This document shows positions 20,762 to 26,432 of a stretch of DNA of 64,000 nt, piece by piece; the stretch's first letter is position 1; every line of letters begins with the position of its first letter. A program made the translations under genes and the position numbers. Origin of the DNA: an uncultured Candidatus Micrarchaeota archaeon (GTDB lineage Archaea; Micrarchaeota; Micrarchaeia; Micrarchaeales; Micrarchaeaceae); contig CAVUGN010000009.1 of NCBI GenBank assembly GCA_963741095.1, forward strand, positions 62,756 through 126,755, given 5' to 3'. The notes under the pieces are model-generated. The model saw only the letters and a list, made by a program, of their open reading frames with translations. It was not told the origin of the DNA and ran no database searches.

Positions 20762-20832
20762 AGAATCATCTTCCTATCCCTAATCAATTGCAGCTTTCTG
20801 TATTTAACCTTTTTGCAACTATATATTTGGGC

Positions 20833-21630
20833 ATGGAAACCAAGGCTCTGCAGAAGGAAAGGGAGACGACGCAGGCAACCATAATTGAGATGGCTGACGC
20901 GCATTGCCATCTTGATCTCATGGACCCATCGGAGATAGCCGACTGCATCAAGGCCGGGGTGATGACCCTGATCACGGACGGCGTGGACACGAAATCCAAC
21001 GCCAGGGCGGTGGAACTGTCTGACGGCAGGCACATCTTCGCCGCGCTGGGCATAGACCCGGAGCATGTGCCGAACACGAGCGACGAGGAGCTCGCATTCA
21101 ACATCGGCCTAATAAGGAGCAACGCAAAGAGGATCGTCGCGATCGGGGAGATAGGGTTGGATTACAAGTACAAGCCGGACTTCAATGCCATGGAAAAACA
21201 GCGAAGATTCTTCGAAGGTTTCCTTGATTTGGCGGAGAGCCTCAAGCTGCCGGTGTGCGTGCATTCAAGGAACGCGCTTGACGACGTTCTATCGATAACC
21301 GGCGAGCGGGACAGCAAAATGGTGCAGATCCACTTCTTCGAGGGCAACGTGCAGCAGGCAAAAGAGATAGAGCGCCGCGGTTACATGGTCTCCATCCCCC
21401 CTCTCGATTCCGGCAAACGAATGAGGACATTGAAGGAGATGGCCATAGACAACATAATGGCGGAGAGCGATGCCCCGGTGGCAGTCGGTTCGCCATTGAT
21501 GGTAAGGAAATCCATAGAGATGATAGCAGCAGCAAAGGGTATGAGTTTCGAGTCCACGGCTGAGGTAGTGGTAAACAACACGAAGAGGTTCTTCAACCTG
21601 CGCGCGAAAGCGGGCCTCATGCGTGCATGA
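20833..21630 (+). CDS. TatD family nuclease
   Basis: DAHCHL, AIGEIGLD, HSR, ESDAP. Confidence 0.92.
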   Translation: METKALQKERETTQATIIEMADAHCHLDLMDPSEIADCIKAGVMTLITDGVDTKSNARAVELSDGRHIFAALGIDPEHVPNTSDEELAFNIGLIRSNAKRIVAIGEIGLDYKYKPDFNAMEKQRRFFEGFLDLAESLKLPVCVHSRNALDDVLSITGERDSKMVQIHFFEGNVQQAKEIERRGYMVSIPPLDSGKRMRTLKEMAIDNIMAESDAPVAVGSPLMVRKSIEMIAAAKGMSFESTAEVVVNNTKRFFNLRAKAGLMRA

Positions 21631-21671
21631 CCGCCCATTAATAAATATTCGGTGCGCAATACCTTATGCGT

Positions 21672-21746
21672 GGGCCTGTAGCTCAGCTTGGATAGAGCGA
21701 CACCCTTCTAAGGTGAAGGTCGTGGGTTCAAATCCCACCAGGCCCG
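21672..21746 (+). tRNA. tRNA-Arg(TCT)
   Basis: Cloverleaf GGGCCTG/CAGGCCC; anticodon loop CTTCTAA; T loop GTTCAAATC. Confidence 0.95.
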
Positions 21747-22690
21747 GCGTATTTTACGACGACAAAGCCGGGCTCGAATCTGCCAGTCAAGCAAAAGAAG
21801 ATCGTGCCAAAAGGCGGGTTCGGGGTGCGTTTTGGCCGTCTTCCAAGCATTCAGAAAGTCGGGAAAACCAGGGTTCGGGGTTGGATTTTCAGGACTTTCT
21901 GCACCAAACAGAGGATTTCAGCAACAATGTGTCAAAACACCCGTTGGAACAGATCAGAGCCATAGTTGCCAAAGTTCACACAAGACGCTTCAGACGCAGA
22001 AAAGAGCCACGTTACGGCACCATCAACAAAGGCTTCACCGAACTTGAGCTGCAACGCTTCCTAAGAAGCGTCAAGAACGACAAGTTCGGGCTTCTTTTCA
22101 AGTACCAGGCCTTCATGGGCCTTCGAGTTGGAGAAGTCAGCAAGTTGCACGTAAGCAACATCGACTTCGACAAACGAGAGCTCACAATACTTAGTGAAAA
22201 ATCTTCCAAGATGGACTCTCTCATAATTCCTTTGGACTTGTTCAAAGAGACCATATCATTCATAAATCAGAACAAAGAGGCCATTGAGTCAGCGCACGGC
22301 TTCATTTTCTTCAAAGAAAACGACAACAATCACAACGAGGTTCCGCACGTAGACCTTGATTACGTCAGAAAGGTCTTCCGAGAATCTGTAGCGCGAGCCA
22401 ATGTAGACCAAATCTATGCCTATTCAGAAGAGACAACCGTCGGGCATAAAGAAAGACCATTACATCGGCTTACAACGCACAGCCTACGCCACTACGCGAT
22501 AACACACTTCGCCAAGGCTACGAATGGAAATATCGTCTTATCCTCTAGGTTCGCCAGACATGCCAGTCCTTCCACAACTATGCGCTATATCGCAAAAGAC
22601 AAAGAACAGCTTTACAATGAGATAGATAACGCATTCACAAACAGCAAAATCGAAGCAATAAAAGTTCTAGCTAATAGACACAGATTATAA
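21710..22690 (+). CDS. tyrosine integrase (C-terminal/catalytic part; start uncertain)
   Basis: GLRVGEV, HSLRH, ARH, TMRY catalytic set; frame open through att. Confidence 0.9.
   Translation, partial: KVKVVGSNPTRPGVFYDDKAGLESASQAKEDRAKRRVRGAFWPSSKHSESRENQGSGLDFQDFLHQTEDFSNNVSKHPLEQIRAIVAKVHTRRFRRRKEPRYGTINKGFTELELQRFLRSVKNDKFGLLFKYQAFMGLRVGEVSKLHVSNIDFDKRELTILSEKSSKMDSLIIPLDLFKETISFINQNKEAIESAHGFIFFKENDNNHNEVPHVDLDYVRKVFRESVARANVDQIYAYSEETTVGHKERPLHRLTTHSLRHYAITHFAKATNGNIVLSSRFARHASPSTTMRYIAKDKEQLYNEIDNAFTNSKIEAIKVLANRHRL
21711..21746 (+). repeat. left att core (tRNA 3' part)
   Basis: AGGTGAAGGTCGTGGGTTCAAATCCCACCAGGCCCG. Confidence 0.95.
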
Positions 22691-22800
22691 TCATGCTGTC
22701 CTGCACTCTTCAAATGGCAAAACCCAAGTAATCGTCAAAAGCCGAAACTAAAAGTAAGTTATAAATATTATATAAATCACAGCACATAATAGTGATTATA

Positions 22801-23415
22801 ATGTCAGTACAAGGATCAAAAAGTGTTCCAACATCTCAGCAGGTGCGAGAAGGGATTTCCGAGGTATTTTTCACTGAAAAGACTGTAAAGAGCTCGGAGG
22901 CAGTCGCAGCAGTGCCGAAAGGCTACAGAATGGCTCGGCCCGATGAAGTTGCTTTAAACTGGAAAGAAAGTCCAGCATTTCTGAAAGCATTGTATGATCT
23001 TCCATGCGCGGTTTGGTCGGATCAAACAGGACTGACTTCTTCAGGACCTCATAAAATAGATGAGAATGGCAAATCGGTAAAGATAACAGAAGCTGAATTT
23101 ATGGCACTTGACGCTAAAGACAGAAGCTGGCATTATTCAGGAACCGGCCTTGTGGCCCTCCTCGGCTACCACTACTGGGGCGGGGGCGGGAGCTTGGACG
23201 TCAATGCGGGTGCGAGGTCTGACCTTGCTGCCCGGGTGGCTTATGTCGCCCTCGAAGAGGGCGCGCAAAAATCTGGAAACTCGAATACTGAACTAGCCTC
23301 CCTGGTTCGAGAAACTCTACCTCCGATAATTGCTGTGCTAGAGCCATCAACGAAGCCAGAAATACTAGAGAATCTAAGAAGTCTGCTAAGAGCGGCATCA
23401 GAAACGAAGGAATAA
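22801..23415 (+). CDS. DGR target (variable) protein
   Basis: Contains the VR matching TR; AT-rich TATA-like sequence upstream. Confidence 0.9.
   Translation: MSVQGSKSVPTSQQVREGISEVFFTEKTVKSSEAVAAVPKGYRMARPDEVALNWKESPAFLKALYDLPCAVWSDQTGLTSSGPHKIDENGKSVKITEAEFMALDAKDRSWHYSGTGLVALLGYHYWGGGGSLDVNAGARSDLAARVAYVALEEGAQKSGNSNTELASLVRETLPPIIAVLEPSTKPEILENLRSLLRAASETKE
23145..23241 (+). repeat. DGR variable repeat (VR)
   Basis: 97 bp aligning to TR with 16 substitutions at TR adenines, 2 other substitutions and one 3-nt gap. Confidence 0.93.
23247..23263 (+). promoter_or_regulatory. DGR cis-acting hairpin with GAA triloop
   Basis: CGCCCTC-GAA-GAGGGCG just 3' of VR, absent after TR. Confidence 0.75.
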
Positions 23416-23443
23416 ATATCTGATGCTGTCTTACTCTTTTTTA

Positions 23444-23621
23444 CCTAGGTTTGCATGGAGAAATCCTGCAAAACATCGCGGAAGCGATGGGTGTAAGCCT
23501 AGGAGCCACACACCCGTCTACAGTGCTAGCAACAATTAGGCATGCTAGACATGAAATTCAGCAGCGACACTGAGTAAGTATCAACTGAAATCGTGAAGCT
23601 GCGGTGCGCCACGAAAGTGGC
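23444..23621 (+). ncRNA. putative structured RNA upstream of TR
   Basis: Multiple stems, three capped by GNRA loops (GAAA, GGAA, GAAA); no ORF of 60 aa or more. Confidence 0.55.
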
Positions 23622-23646
23622 ATATAAAGTAGATGGATTAGCATTG

Positions 23647-23746
23647 CGGCCTTGTGGCCCTCAACGGCAACTACAACAACTGGAACAGGGACAGAAGGTT
23701 GAACGTCAATGCGGATGCGAGGTCTGACAATGCTGCTCGAATGGCT
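23647..23746 (+). repeat. DGR template repeat (TR)
   Basis: AAC-rich copy of VR, 35 nt upstream of the RT start. Confidence 0.93.
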
Positions 23747-23781
23747 CTTGTTTACATCCTAGGTCCACATTTGGTAATCCT

Positions 23782-24911
23782 ATGGAAACCTACAGAGACC
23801 TTTACACTAAGCTTTGCTCTTATGATAACCTTGAATTGGCTTGGTTAAGAGCAAGAAAAAGAAAGACACTCAAGGAATACGTCATAGAATTCGAATCGGA
23901 TTTAGACTGGAATATAAAACAGTTGAAACACGAGCTAGAAACCTTCACATATTCACCAGCTCCGCTTACTACATTCATCATAAAAGACCCAAAAACCAGA
24001 AAAATAAGCGCAGCGCATTTCAGGGACCGCATCATACACCATGCGATATGCAACATAATAGCACCCATTTTTGAAAAGGATTTCATCTACGATTCCTTCG
24101 CCAATCAAAAACACAAGGGGACGCACATGGCAATCAAGAGACTAGAGAAATTCATGAGAAAAGTAAGTAGCAACCACAAAGCGGTGCGGGGGGGCAAAGT
24201 AAACTTTTTATCAACAAAAGCAATACCGGATACGCCCTTAAAGCCGATGTGCGTCATTATTTCGACACTGTCGATCATCAGATATTATTGTACATTGTAG
24301 AACGTAAAATAAAGGATGCTAATCTTATTTGGCTAATAAAAAAGATACTTGAAAACCATAAAACCGTTATTGCAGGCAAAGGAATGCCGCTTGGTAACTT
24401 AACCTCGCAATTTTTTGCAAACGTCTACCTAAACGAATTTGACCACTTCGTTAAACAGGTGCTAAAGGCAAAATATTACATCAGGTACGTAGACGATTTT
24501 ATAATTCTCCATAAAGACAAGAAAGTGCTGGAAAAATGGAAAGTCGCGATAGACACATTCTTGAAAATTAACCTGAAGATAGAACTTCATCCAGAAAAAT
24601 CAAGAATAGTGCCCATAGTGCGGGGCATAACCATGTTAGGATTCAGAATTTTTCATCATCACAGGCTCCTTAAGAAGAGCAACGCTCGAAGAATTTGGAA
24701 ACGCTTAGAAAGATTCCAAGAAAGAACTGATACGGGCAAAATGACCGTAGACGAAGCAGCACGAAGCATGGAAGGCTGGCTTGCGTATGCCCGCTTTGCC
24801 AATACGTATAACCTGAGAAAAAGAGTTGCTGCAAGATTTAACGCTTTATTCATAAAGAATCCTTCAGTCCTTCAAGCATATCCCGTTCGCTCTGCTCCGC
24901 AAGGCCCATAA
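23782..24911 (+). CDS. DGR reverse transcriptase, split by a frameshift at G7 (24188-24194)
   Basis: PKTRKISAAHFRDRIIHHA; KADVRHYFD; GMPLGNLTSQFFANVYL; YIRYVDDF. Confidence 0.93.
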
Positions 24912-24930
24912 TAAACTCGTTTCGACATGC

Positions 24931-25191
24931 TTAAGCCAACAACCTGTTAAACTCGTCCACTGACAGGTCCGCTTCCCGCATTATAGTACGCACCATCCCC
25001 TTGCCAATCGGCTTGTGGGCAGGCACTACAATCATGTTCTCGGGATTCCTTTCTCCAAAAATAGAAGCATATCTTTCCATGTCTGCAAGCTGCATCACGA
25101 TATGGCTGCCCCTCTGGTGGCTGATAATGTAGCCTGCTCTGGTCAGGGCCTTCACCACCCTGTCATAATCTATTGGTACCAGCCTAGACAC
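24931..25191 (-). CDS. hicA: HicA family toxin
   Basis: QRGSHI, VVPAH, GMVRTIMREA. Confidence 0.9.
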   Translation of the reverse strand: MSRLVPIDYDRVVKALTRAGYIISHQRGSHIVMQLADMERYASIFGERNPENMIVVPAHKPIGKGMVRTIMREADLSVDEFNRLLA

Positions 25192-25393
25192 TTACCTGCA
25201 CCATCGCCACGGGCACAGGGTTGCCGTGTTTTTTGAGTGCTTCCAGGTATGCCTGTATCGCTTCCTTGACGTTCTTCATCAGTTCCTTGCGCGTCCTGCC
25301 TTCGGTGGCGCAGCCCGGAAGGTCAAGCACCTTTGCTACATACATGTTGTCTTCGTCCTTTTCTATTATGACCCTGTACTTCATCCTTTCCAT
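25184..25393 (-). CDS. hicB: HicB family antitoxin (short)
   Basis: DLPGCATEG, NVKEAIQAYLE. Confidence 0.9.
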   Translation of the reverse strand: MERMKYRVIIEKDEDNMYVAKVLDLPGCATEGRTRKELMKNVKEAIQAYLEALKKHGNPVPVAMVQVSV

Positions 25394-25942
25394 GGTTATA
25401 TCATGGTTGTGCGGATATTAAATCTTTTCCTCGGGTCGCACATCTCTATCGCCTTGCTTTGCAAGGCTCACGAGGTGCCTCCCTAAGCCAGCAACCTGGC
25501 AGTTCAAGGAACCTTACTGCGCCGCTTTTTGCCCCCACTCAAAAAGCGGCCGTTTCTGATGAAACTCTTTTTCAAAGAGTTTCCGCTTGAGCCCGCCGAC
25601 CGACGCCGAAGGCGTCGCTGGAGGCGGGCGAAGGCTTCTTAAGACGAACTGTGGGCGTATGTAGGTCGTAACTTAATGGTAAGTAGCTCTCTCGATAAAA
25701 TTTCGCTCCAAAAAACCTGTCGACGAAGCCGTTCTTAAGACGATTTCAAAAAATCATCTTAAGTCTCTGGCGTCATCTTTAGTTTTTTGATCGGGTCGAA
25801 ATTTGTACGGAACCGCACCCGAAATGCGTATAAATCCTAAGCGCGTAGAAACATTGAAATTCGTGGTTCAATTGCGTCAAACGATCAGGGTTCGGGGTTG
25901 CCATGGAAAACTCAAAAAGACGAGAGAATTTGCTTGGAAGAG

Positions 25943-25978
25943 AGGTGAAGGTCGTGGGTTCAAATCCCACCAGGCCCG
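25943..25978 (+). repeat. right att core
   Basis: Identical to 21711-21746. Confidence 0.95.
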
Positions 25979-25994
25979 CTGTTTCAGTGATTCC

Positions 25995-26432
25995 ATACCG
26001 GACAAAAGATTTTTCATAGGCGTAAAGGCGCTGATCACCGACTCCAAAGGCAAGTTGCTCATAATGCGTAAAGCGCCTGGGTCTACCGACAGATGGAAAC
26101 CTTTCTGGGACCTTCCAGGCGGCAAGATGCAGCAAGCCGGGATAAAAGAGACGCTGCTCAAGGAGGCGAAAGAGGAACTGGGCATAAGCAACTTGAGGAT
26201 AGGGCCCCTGTTCGATGTCGCGATATCCAATTTCAACATACATGATCGCGAAGGCGCAGTCTTGGGCGGCCTGCTCTATGTCCTGTACGAATGCAAGCTA
26301 CCCGCCGGTTCAAAGTTGAAGCTCAGCGAGGAGCACAGCGAGTACAAATGGGTCAGTCCAAACGAGGCAAAAGAGCTGCTGTCCTTCATGCTGCCCAGAG
26401 ATCTCCTCGAAAAATTGGCTACAAGTTTGTAG
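25995..26432 (+). CDS. NUDIX hydrolase, probable ATA start
   Basis: WDLPGGK...KEAKEELG; EHSEYKWV. Confidence 0.85.
   Translation: MPDKRFFIGVKALITDSKGKLLIMRKAPGSTDRWKPFWDLPGGKMQQAGIKETLLKEAKEELGISNLRIGPLFDVAISNFNIHDREGAVLGGLLYVLYECKLPAGSKLKLSEEHSEYKWVSPNEAKELLSFMLPRDLLEKLATSL

What the first reader, a model, noticed from the sequence alone, without database searches (positions are those of the whole stretch)
21711..25978. Minimal 4.3-kb tRNA-integrated element carrying a DGR and a toxin-antitoxin pair
Seen: 36-bp identical repeats of the tRNA-Arg 3' part enclose only an integrase, a target gene, TR, RT and hicBA. No capsid, replication or conjugation genes are recognisable. Known: tRNA 3'-end duplication plus a tyrosine recombinase marks site-specific integration, DGRs occur in DPANN archaea, and TA modules stabilise mobile elements. 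Inference: a small excisable vehicle for a hypermutation cassette, possibly a satellite of a helper element.
Basis: partly seen in the sequence, partly recalled or inferred. Interest (0 to 1): 0.9.

Follow-up and report, generated by a model that had tools for sequence, protein, structure and literature searches.

The report
Tiny tRNA-integrated element carrying gated DGR
A 4.2-kb mobile-type island sits in a tRNA-Arg gene of a tiny Micrarchaeota archaeon and carries a protein-hypermutation cassette whose reverse transcriptase is knocked out of frame by a run of G's, a feature shared by most of its relatives.

Summary
Exact 36-bp copies of the tRNA-Arg(TCT) 3' part (21711-21746, 25943-25978) enclose a tyrosine integrase, a DGR (C-type-lectin-like target with VR, RT-16 RNA, TR, RT) and hicBA. 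No replication, capsid or transfer gene was found.

It belongs to a family of small tRNA-targeting integrase islands in Micrarchaeota. Relatives carry other cargo (AbiE, R-M, Cu-ATPase). A 125-bp arms-only remnant lies at tRNA-Lys in the same genome.

- The RT is split into two frames at a G7 run.
- Three copies of an 11-nt motif lie only in the element arms.
- A new structured RNA motif lies upstream of hicB.
- No Avd gene is present.

The frame break is not private to this element. Of 44 close RT relatives, 34 carry a simple repeat (G7-G22, C9-C12, (AG)7-8) at that spot, and 33 of those 34 are out of frame. All 10 without a repeat are in frame. Tract length differs between near-identical loci. 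I read this as a repeat-gated, default-off hypermutator.

Current excision is unproven: no circle junction and no clean empty site were found. The satellite idea has no support.

The parts
21671..21748 (+). tRNA-Arg(TCT), intact. It is the only TCT isoacceptor found in the genome. Its 3' part is the left att copy.
21711..21746 (+). attL core: 36-nt exact repeat, the 3' part of the tRNA
21747..21928 (+). Left arm, conserved and probably non-coding. It holds two direct copies of GGGTTCGGGGT (21816-21826, 21871-21881), candidate integrase arm sites.
   Evidence: (D6). It is 72% identical to the arm behind tRNA-Lys in G017, with 1- and 2-nt indels.
21929..22690 (+). Tyrosine integrase, 253 aa from GTG 21929. 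TTG 21881 is an alternative start. The frame is open back to 21623 through the tRNA.
   Evidence: Pfam PF00589, PHROG integrase. R66, K91, H184-x-x-R187, H211 and Y220 are invariant in 9 homologues.
22801..23415 (+). DGR target (variable) protein. The database copy starts at ATG 22801. Residues 20-157 have a C-type-lectin-like fold, followed by a C-terminal helical hairpin.
   Evidence: (pLDDT 90.6)
23145..23246 (+). VR (residues 118-152 of the target)
   Evidence: (D1, D4)
23248..23262 (+). 6-bp GC-rich hairpin with a GAA loop directly 3' of VR, as at the VR end of known DGRs (the comparison is recalled)
   Evidence: Read
23444..23646 (+). RT-16 RNA (Rfam RF03019), abutting the 5' end of TR
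   Evidence: 74.4 bits, gathering 50. The same position in 12 of 12 related DGR loci.
23647..23751 (+). TR (template repeat), rich in AAC codons
23782..24911 (+). DGR reverse transcriptase in two frames: 23782 to the G run, then 24195-24911 in the -1 frame. The halves abut in the PHROG RT profile (positions 96-226 and 229-441).
24188..24194 (+). G7 run at the frame break. One more G, or two fewer, would restore the frame.
24931..25191 (-). hicA toxin, 86 aa
   Evidence: (PF07927, E 7e-12)
25184..25393 (-). hicB antitoxin, 69 aa, overlapping hicA by 8 nt
   Evidence: (PF15919, E 2e-11)
25415..25545 (-). New conserved structured RNA motif (model R1), ending 22 nt upstream of the hicB start
25888..25898 (+). 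Third copy of GGGTTCGGGGT, in the right arm
   Evidence: The right arm 25888-25942 is 96% identical to the remnant on contig C1.
25943..25978 (+). attR core: 36-nt exact repeat

Best explanation
The region is an integrated copy of a small (4,232 bp including one core) site-specific integrative element. It belongs to a Micrarchaeota family of tRNA-targeting tyrosine-integrase islands.

Shown:
- The element's attP carries a tRNA-Arg-like segment, so integration rebuilt an intact tRNA-Arg(TCT) at attL and left a 36-bp copy at attR.
- An 11-nt motif repeated in both arms is a candidate integrase arm site.
- The cargo is a DGR: a C-type-lectin-like target with VR, the RT-16 RNA, TR and RT.
- A hicBA pair and a conserved leader-like RNA are also carried.

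Inferred:
- hicBA stabilises the island.
- The DGR has worked, because VR and TR differ mainly at adenines. It is now held off, because the RT is out of frame at a G7 run.
- This break is a lineage-wide design rather than a private lesion. Most close RT relatives have a G/C or AG repeat at the same codon position and are out of frame across it. Full-length RT would then arise only in the minority of cells or transcripts where the tract slips by one unit. Slippage could be DNA-level phase variation, polymerase slippage or ribosome slippage.
- Hypermutation would therefore be rare and reversible.

Excision and transfer would need the integrase plus an unknown vehicle.
For: Integration:
- Exact 36-nt repeat equal to the tRNA 3' part, integrase next to the tRNA, and a 7-point GC drop.
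- All six catalytic integrase residues are conserved.
- GGGTTCGGGGT occurs 3 times in 64 kb, all in the arms; 0.65 expected with up to 1 mismatch.

Mobility of the family:
- Integrase homologues (39-67% identity) lie beside tRNA-Lys, Leu(TAG), Leu(CAG) and Glu genes in relatives, with different cargo.
- G004 has a 4.6-kb element bounded by a long repeat of tRNA-Leu.
- On contig C1 of the same genome, tRNA-Lys is followed by 125 nt made only of left-arm-like and right-arm-like sequence (96% identity to the right arm), then an Arg-type, not Lys-type, 36-nt copy. The Arg-like segment therefore travels with the element.
- The congeneric G001 has none of the element's parts.

DGR:
- 17 of 28 TR adenines changed against 4 non-adenine changes.
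- CLec-like fold with VR on its last strands.
- RT halves contiguous in one profile.
- RT-16 found in 12 of 12 related loci.

Gate (162 loci examined, 17 duplicates and 6 incomplete dropped, 139 usable):
- 44 RTs are at least 60% identical. 34 of them have a repeat and 33 of those 34 are out of frame. 0 of the 10 without a repeat are out of frame.
- 95 more distant RTs have no repeat, and 2 are out of frame.
- Family census by taxonomy: RT found in 19 of 129 genomes (20 loci). All 12 repeat-bearing loci are out of frame; 7 repeat-less loci are in frame and one more is in frame at the linker but shifted further downstream.
- In 372 kb of related loci, 32 of 33 G/C runs of 8 or more lie at this one spot.
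- Tract length differs between loci at least 97% identical: G9/G11 against G10, and (AG)8 against (AG)7.
- L043 has an interrupted tract and is in frame.
Against: - No circle junction, no empty attB and no read-level tract heterogeneity could be seen. Only low-depth (2-6x) Logan contigs were available.
- VR is identical in the two runs whose contigs cover it.
- VR and TR also differ by a 3-nt indel and 4 non-adenine changes. The cassette may not have homed for a long time.
- G7 is short for a slippery tract and is not unusual in this genome: there are 12 G/C runs of 7 and none longer. This copy could be stuck off.
- No Avd-like gene and no excisionase were found.
- Under unbiased phase variation about one third of alleles should be in frame. 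Near-total 'off' needs selection or a non-DNA mechanism.
- In the protein database about 29 of the 120 best clusters are full length, and about 11-13 of those show GGG(G) or RERE at the tract position. In-frame alleles may therefore exist that my DNA sample missed.
- Relatives are not independent samples.
Confidence: 0.78

Rival explanations
1. Decaying, immobile remnant. The island integrated once, its DGR is dead (the RT frameshift is an ordinary pseudogenising indel at a mutable G run), and it is kept only by the hicBA addiction module.
For: - The RT is out of frame.
- There is a 3-nt indel and 4 non-adenine VR/TR differences.
- No VR variation in 2 runs.
- No Avd gene.
- Truncated integrases and an arms-only relic show that these islands do decay.
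Against: - Apart from the one shift, both RT halves (135 + 227 aa) are free of stops and keep 60-79% identity to relatives.
- The integrase keeps all catalytic residues and the att copies are 36 of 36 identical.
- Random decay does not explain 33 of 34 independent-looking loci broken at the same codon by repeats of differing type and length, while 10 of 10 repeat-less ones are intact.
Confidence: 0.15
2. The frame break is a sequencing or assembly error at a homopolymer. The RT is really intact and the DGR is constitutively on.
For: - Homopolymers are error-prone, especially in Nanopore-based MAGs. Several relatives appear to be long-read assemblies; this is my reading of their record names, and no call shows it.
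- Contig depth here is low.
Against: - G7 is not a problem length for short reads.
- Breaks occur in assemblies whose contig names point to SPAdes and MEGAHIT as well as in those I take to be long-read.
- Poly-C and (AG)7-8 tracts are also out of frame.
- Both +1 and -1 offsets occur.
- No indel variant at the run was reported in the contigs laid, although cover there is thin.
Confidence: 0.05
3. Satellite of a helper virus or plasmid. The element excises and is packaged or transferred by a helper, with the conserved RNA motif or the arms serving as the hijack signal.
For: - No replication or transfer genes are present.
- Related islands are spread over many genera and several tRNA targets.
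- A conserved non-coding motif of unknown role travels with them.
Against: - No packaging, capsid-redirecting or helper-sensing gene was found.
- The viral-contig scan with the integrase found nothing.
- The RNA motif usually sits 20-130 nt upstream of a co-directional cargo ORF, which looks more like a leader.
Confidence: 0.08

Closest known systems
Diversity-generating retroelements of DPANN archaea and Bordetella phage BPP-1 (the prototype; features recalled, not from a call)
   Same: - TR/VR pair with adenine-specific differences.
- RT of the DGR/group-II-like kind.
- VR on the last strands of a C-type-lectin-like domain.
- GC-rich hairpin 3' of VR.
- A structured RNA next to TR.
   Different: - No Avd gene.
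- The structured RNA (RT-16) lies 5' of TR, not between TR and RT.
- The target has a C-terminal helical hairpin after VR.
- The RT reading frame is interrupted by a simple repeat in this and most related loci.
- The whole cassette sits on a 4.2-kb integrase island.
tRNA-integrating archaeal and bacterial integrative elements (pNOB8-type intact-integrase elements; genomic islands)
   Same: - Tyrosine recombinase next to an intact tRNA.
- Direct repeat of the tRNA 3' part.
- Lower GC.
- TA module as cargo.
   Different: - Very small, and no replication, transfer or excisionase gene.
- The integrase frame stays open through the tRNA. In an in-silico circle it would reach an ATG in the right arm, which resembles SSV-type split integrases. 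A close homologue (L119) starts after the tRNA, and the arm shows 1- and 2-nt indels, so that reading is weak.
Simple-sequence-repeat contingency loci (phase variation in Neisseria, Campylobacter, Haemophilus) and programmed frameshift or transcriptional slippage in transposases and retroviral pol (abstracts seen in the listings; the rest recalled)
   Same: - Homopolymer or dinucleotide tract inside an ORF.
- Length varies between near-identical loci.
- One unit of slippage restores the frame.
- The effect is to limit expression of a risky DNA-modifying enzyme.
   Different: - The host is an archaeon.
- The gated gene is the RT of a targeted hypermutator.
- Consensus alleles are almost always off rather than a mix.
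RT-16 RNA motif (Rfam RF03019; Weinberg et al. 2017, PMC5737381: passages of the section 'RT motifs' read)
   Same: A structured RNA found next to RT genes. The authors guessed that further RT motifs besides RT-10 work in DGRs.
   Different: Here it is placed precisely, between the target gene and TR in 13 of 13 Micrarchaeota DGRs looked at. The paper's supplements, which may list its genomic contexts, were not seen.

Membership tests
Diversity-generating retroelement | TR/VR pair whose differences fall at TR adenines | tested here: met
   17 of 28 adenines changed against 4 non-adenine changes inside the homology, plus one 3-nt indel
Diversity-generating retroelement | RT gene next to TR with RT motifs | tested here: met
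   RVT_1 on both halves. PHROG RT profile positions 96-226 and 229-441. YVDD and LGNLTSQ are read in the translation; their status as the DGR hallmark is recalled. The frame is broken at G7.
Diversity-generating retroelement | VR at the end of a ligand-binding (C-type-lectin) fold in the target | tested here: met
   AF2 pLDDT 90.6. VIA Z 6-8.3 to many CTLD/Link chains over residues 20-157. Foldseek is weak, E 0.03-0.1. No solved DGR variable protein was among the rows listed.
Diversity-generating retroelement | Accessory protein Avd | tested here: not met
   No ORF in the element hits PF05635. A relative, L041, has one. Avd is not universal in DGRs (recalled).
Diversity-generating retroelement | Ongoing mutagenic homing | not testable with these tools
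   Only contigs were available, and VR is identical in 2 runs
Tyrosine recombinase / integrase | Catalytic R, K, H-x-x-R, H/W, Y | tested here: met
   R66, K91, H184, R187, H211 and Y220 are invariant in 9 sequences. PF00589 E 3.7e-12.
tRNA-integrated mobile element | Direct repeat of the tRNA 3' part bounding DNA of foreign composition with the integrase at one end | tested here: met
tRNA-integrated mobile element | Presence/absence polymorphism or an excised form | tested here: inconclusive
   The element is absent from congeneric G001, but the locus there is broken at the tRNA. No circle junction in 4 runs of contigs. A related relic lies at another tRNA in the same genome.
HicAB type II toxin-antitoxin | Adjacent small HicA and HicB genes | tested here: met
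   PF07927 and PF15919 above cut-off, with an 8-nt overlap. Toxicity was not tested.
SSV-type integrase (gene split by integration) | attP inside the int ORF, with the N-terminal piece at the far end | tested here: inconclusive
   The in-silico circle gives a 339-aa ORF from ATG 25903. However, the arm has 1- and 2-nt indels against G017, the G004 circle offers no ATG, and L119 int starts after its tRNA.
Simple-repeat phase-variable (contingency) gene | Repeat tract inside the ORF whose length varies between otherwise identical copies and sets the frame | tested here: met
   For the lineage. For this very copy, G7 with no variant seen: inconclusive.
Integron | Array of cassettes each with an attC next to the integrase | tested here: not met
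   The RNA/DNA motif R1 is single-copy per genome and conserved in sequence
Phage satellite (PICI/P4-like) | Genes for hijacking helper capsids or sensing a helper | tested here: not met
   None in Pfam, NCBIfam or PHROGs scans of all element ORFs

The most novel reading that the evidence does not exclude
In Micrarchaeota, targeted protein hypermutation is itself under a stochastic switch. A hypermutable G/C or AG tract inside the DGR reverse-transcriptase gene keeps the enzyme off by default. Rare slippage, in DNA, RNA or on the ribosome, turns it on briefly. Such gated DGRs can ride on minimal 4-kb tRNA-integrating islands that also carry an addiction module and a dedicated leader RNA.
Probability: 0.5. 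Interest if true: 0.85.

Novelty: new variant of a known kind. Interest (0 to 1): 0.72.

Why it matters
DGRs are the only known natural machines for targeted protein hypermutation. How cells restrain them is poorly understood.

A repeat-gated RT would be a second-order switch: a mutable tract that controls a mutator. It would give DPANN symbionts rare bursts of surface or ligand-binding diversity without constant mutational load.

It is directly testable, because tract length and VR lie about 1 kb apart and can be phased on single reads.

It also matters for annotation. About 70% of these RTs are called as 'partial' or split genes and may be discarded as pseudogenes.

The 4.2-kb island shows that a complete DGR can move on one of the smallest integrative elements described, to my knowledge. 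The island family is a handle on gene flow in Micrarchaeota.

Tried and rejected
Circle junction, empty site and tract heterogeneity in reads:
- One search found 6 DNA runs. No RNA holder was listed.
- Four runs were laid, but they are Logan contigs at depth 2-6 that break at the 36-nt repeat. No 'goes back' joint and no indel row at 24188-24194 appeared. This is no evidence either way.
- One X4 contig joins a tRNA 3' end to 26428, skipping the NUDIX gene, as in G001. It comes from a related strain.

Empty site in relatives:
- G001 contig C2 ends inside tRNA-Arg(TCT).
- G001 C37 carries ArgRS, then a tRNA-Arg(CCT) with a TCT-type acceptor, then DAHP synthase, without NUDIX.
- G001 C59 starts in a CCT tRNA.
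- I could not decide between a real rearrangement and an assembly tangle.
- Seven family relatives keep TatD-tRNA, but other genes follow it.

Other steps that led nowhere:
- The viral-contig scan with the integrase found nothing.
- Split (SSV-type) integrase: considered and left as weak.
- Integron reading of the R1 motif: rejected, because it is single-copy.
- The 40-aa ORF at 23451-23573 looked like an HTH peptide. I rejected it in favour of the RT-16 RNA that covers it.
- Foldseek against the PDB gave no match at E 0.001 or better.

Literature:
- Four full-text searches listed no paper linking a DGR RT to a repeat tract, frameshift or phase variation. None described a tRNA-integrated DGR island in DPANN.
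- The library lacks most subscription journals, and supplements were closed.

Full report
**1. Observation**

ARAGORN and Rfam place an intact tRNA-Arg(TCT) at 21671-21748. Its last 36 nt before the discriminator region (21711-21746) recur exactly at 25943-25978, with a spacing of 4232.

Between the two copies lie:
- a Phage_integrase ORF;
- a 207-aa ORF without a Pfam hit;
- two RVT_1 ORFs in different frames;
- a convergent hicA/hicB pair.

The GC content of the enclosed 4196 nt is 45.3%. The genome is 52.1% and the flanks are 56.0% and 50.2%.

The window is contig C9:62756-126755 of a 1.08-Mb, 11-contig, 94%-complete genome. Titles of the closest RT loci name Candidatus Micrarchaeota.

**2. 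Integration module**

From GTG 21929 the integrase (253 aa) aligns with eight homologues. R66, K91, H184-x-x-R187, H211 and Y220 are invariant.

The frame is open upstream through the tRNA to 21623. In a circle modelled in a script it would reach an ATG at 25903. Three results make a split, SSV-type gene unlikely, and I put it at roughly 15%:
- the 180-nt arm 21747-21928 differs from its G017 counterpart by 1- and 2-nt indels;
- the G004 circle offers no ATG;
- a close homologue (L119) starts after its tRNA.

The arm carries two exact copies of GGGTTCGGGGT, and a third lies 45 nt before attR. These are the only three in 64 kb. They are read in different frames, so they are DNA sites. I take them as candidate arm-type integrase sites (inference).

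**3. Evidence for mobility**

(a) Integrase homologues lie beside tRNA genes in other genera, each with different small cargo:
- G003: tRNA-Lys, with a TdeIII restriction enzyme and a methylase.
- G017: tRNA-Lys, a truncated integrase with a conserved arm.
- G004: tRNA-Leu(TAG). This element is 4.6 kb, bounded by a repeat covering 79 nt of the tRNA plus 40 nt beyond it, and carries an archaeal ATPase and AbiEii.
- G040 and G026: a Cu P-type ATPase (G040 beside tRNA-Leu(CAG)).
- G012: tRNA-Leu(TAG), with a ParE-like pair.
- G033: tRNA-Glu, with hicBA.

(b) On contig C1 of the same genome, tRNA-Lys(TTT) is followed by 125 nt. This stretch is the left arm (about 82% identical) fused at the 11-nt motif to the right arm (96%). 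An Arg-type 36-mer with one mismatch follows. It is an arms-only relic of a second insertion. It shows that the Arg-like segment belongs to the element's attP, and that crossover lies in the last roughly 13 nt shared by both tRNAs (inference from the sequence).

(c) The congeneric genome G001 (84% complete) shows none of the element's parts: not its DNA, not the R1 motif, not the RT.

What is missing is a clean empty site and a circle:
- G001's contigs break in the tRNA and look tangled between two near-identical tRNA-Arg genes.
- Family-level relatives have other genes to the right of TatD-tRNA.
- The only reads available were low-depth Logan contigs that stop at the repeat.

**4. The DGR**

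VR (23145-23246, residues 118-152 of the target) and TR (23647-23751) differ at 17 of 28 TR adenines. They also differ at 4 other positions and by one 3-nt indel. TR is rich in AAC codons.

A 6-bp GC hairpin with a GAA loop follows VR (23248-23262, read).

The target has 98 homologues in the representative library. An AlphaFold model built with 61 of them has pLDDT 90.6. Residues 20-157 align to many C-type-lectin-like and Link domains at Z 6-8.3, which I judge to be nearly all of the 50 listed rows. Foldseek is weak. Residues 154-207 form a helical hairpin.

Rfam RT-16 (RF03019) covers 23444-23646 and abuts TR. It holds the same place in 12 of 12 related DGR loci scanned. It is absent from a target-plus-hicBA locus that lacks an RT. 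The describing paper gives no function and guesses that further RT motifs serve DGRs (PMC5737381, passages read).

No Avd gene is present.

**5. The RT frame break**

The N-terminal 135 aa and C-terminal 227 aa match positions 96-226 and 229-441 of one PHROG RT profile. They lie in frames that differ by one base, and the switch falls in a G7 run (24188-24194).

The three homologues first found in relatives are broken at the same place, by G10-G11 runs. I then examined the window, one more relative, 80 genome-contig loci and 80 metagenome loci. That makes 162 loci. I dropped 17 as duplicates and 6 as incomplete, leaving 139.

| RT group | Loci | With a repeat | Out of frame |
|---|---|---|---|
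| At least 60% identical, repeat present | 34 | all | 33 (the in-frame one has (AC)5) |
| At least 60% identical, no repeat | 10 | none | 0 |
| Below 60% identical | 95 | none | 2 |

The repeats are G7-G22, C9-C12, (AG)7-8 and one (AC)5. They lie in the linker between the GTH..RF.KF.RK block and the GYALKAD..HYFD block. I checked three-frame translations by eye for 48 loci.

A sample defined by taxonomy gives the same picture. The RT occurs in 19 of 129 genomes of the family, as 20 loci. All 12 repeat-bearing loci are out of frame. Seven repeat-less loci are in frame. One further repeat-less locus (G048) is in frame at the linker but shifts frame further downstream.

At order level the RT occurs in 31 of 248 genomes. 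Nine loci match a full-length query in one piece, and the rest are split near residues 113-149. The unpublished genome G164 counts among the split ones.

Other points:
- In 372 kb of related loci, 32 of 33 G/C runs of 8 or more sit at this spot.
- Tract length varies between loci at least 97% identical. One scaffold holds G9 (in frame by my reading) and G11 around a gap, where another assembly has G10. (AG)8 stands against (AG)7.
- L043 has GGGGGTGGGG and is in frame, while L083, with near-identical flanks, has G11 and is not.
- Both +1 and -1 offsets occur.

**6. Reading of the break**

- Random decay does not break one codon position in dozens of loci with repeats of three kinds.
- Assembly error does not explain (AG)n or poly-C tracts, breaks in assemblies I take to come from different methods, or G7.

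I conclude that a mutable tract was selected at this loop, and that the DNA consensus is 'off'. How 'on' arises is open. My estimates:
- DNA slippage (phase variation): about 0.5. The length polymorphism supports it.
- Transcriptional or ribosomal slippage: about 0.35. The near-absence of in-frame consensus alleles supports it.
- A recurrent pseudogenisation hot spot: about 0.15.

Caveats:
- Among the 120 best protein clusters, about 29 are full length. About 11-13 of these show GGG(G) or RERE at the tract position, so they may be 'on' alleles.
- Relatives are not independent.
- In this very genome G7 is the longest run class and occurs 12 times. This copy may have contracted and become stuck.
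- The non-adenine VR/TR differences and the invariant VR in two runs fit a long silent phase.

**7. Other cargo**

hicA (86 aa) and hicB (69 aa) overlap by 8 nt and pass the Pfam cut-offs.

A 131-nt motif (25415-25545, minus strand) ends 22 nt upstream of hicB. It recurs once per genome in 9 of 41 genomes searched, this one included. In seven of the nine genomes it lies within about 4 kb of a match to the integrase, two of these only fragments. It usually lies 20-130 nt upstream of a co-directional ORF, and these ORFs are of varied kinds. In G035 that ORF is the DGR target.

Across 10 aligned matches (the nine plus a weak one in locus L024), 95% of cells pair and 14 of 28 pairs show compensatory change. 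Slid controls give about 40% paired and at most 5 such pairs. The alignment was fitted to the model, which favours it. Rfam has no match. I read it as a leader or regulatory RNA that travels with these islands (inference).

**8. Comparison and novelty**

Each module is of a known kind: tyrosine integrase at a tRNA, DGR, HicAB.

Three things are new relative to what I could find in four literature searches (listings and abstracts only) and from recall:
- the packaging of a whole DGR on a 4.2-kb island in a DPANN archaeon;
- the placement of RT-16;
- above all, the lineage-wide repeat tract that takes the RT out of frame.

The exact int-DGR-hicAB unit was not seen elsewhere. int+DGR occurs in 3 of 26 Micrarchaeota DGR loci (L041, L046, L051). 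int+hicBA occurs in G020 and in two G033 loci, and target+hicBA in G024.

**Verdict**

This is a real integrated element and a real DGR. It is currently off, its present mobility is unproven, and the satellite idea is unsupported. The gate on the RT is the most interesting part and is readily testable.

Noticed in passing
G000 contig C1:106519-106757 (locus L017:3020-3258, minus strand): tRNA-Lys(TTT) is followed by a 125-nt arms-only relic of a related element and an Arg-type 36-nt repeat with one mismatch. The relic is fused exactly at the GGGTTCGGGGT motif.
   Followed up: yes
Loci L037-L060, L121-L145 and L212-L229 (RT linker), e.g. L037:5934, L045:5947, L052, L143: Most Micrarchaeota DGR RT genes carry G7-G22, C9-C12 or (AG)7-8 at one codon position and are out of frame there. 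L042 is a scaffold with G9 and G11 copies around an NN gap, where L123 has G10.
   Followed up: yes
Window 25415-25545 (-); L117:1046-1176, L118:6932-7060, L119:5583-5735, L201:5079-5206, L029:10159-10281: A previously undescribed structured RNA motif of about 130 nt, single-copy, linked to these integrase islands. In G035 it lies just upstream of a DGR target gene.
   Followed up: partly
Window 25590-25640: A GC-rich inverted repeat, also conserved (77%) next to the R1 motif in G019. One run's contig skips 25515-25590.
   Followed up: no
Window 25979-26432: The NUDIX domain starts about 40 nt after attR, with no ATG, GTG or TTG between the repeat and the domain. The first ATG (26066) would cut off the first strands. 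The gene is absent from G001 and from a related strain's contig in run X4, where the tRNA end joins 26428 directly.
   Followed up: partly
G001 loci L019, L020, L021: The sister species has a tRNA-Arg with a CCT anticodon but a TCT-type acceptor stem, lying between ArgRS and DAHP synthase. Contig breaks fall in both tRNA-Arg genes. This is either recombination between tRNA-Arg genes or an assembly tangle.
   Followed up: partly
L033:8376-8969, L034:7054-7715, L035:1190-1791: Close hicBA homologues (67-90% identity) lie directly downstream of tRNA-Glu genes in three other genera, with no integrase hit within the fetched loci.
   Followed up: no
L032:6556-8555 (G024): A target-protein homologue (46% identity) lies 1 kb upstream of hicBA. 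No RT, TR or RT-16 is present. It may be an orphaned DGR target.
   Followed up: partly
Window 21623-21928 and 25903-25942: The integrase frame is open through the whole tRNA. In a modelled circle it would start at ATG 25903, 13 codons before the core. The same peptide start is kept in the C1 relic. This hints at an SSV-like split gene, but the support is weak.
   Followed up: partly
L205-L211 and window 20788-21748: TatD followed by a tRNA is conserved across the family. The DNA just after the tRNA varies; in G002, for example, it holds a ParE-antitoxin-like gene. The site looks like a hot spot for insertions. ARAGORN misses the tRNA in several of these loci.
   Followed up: partly
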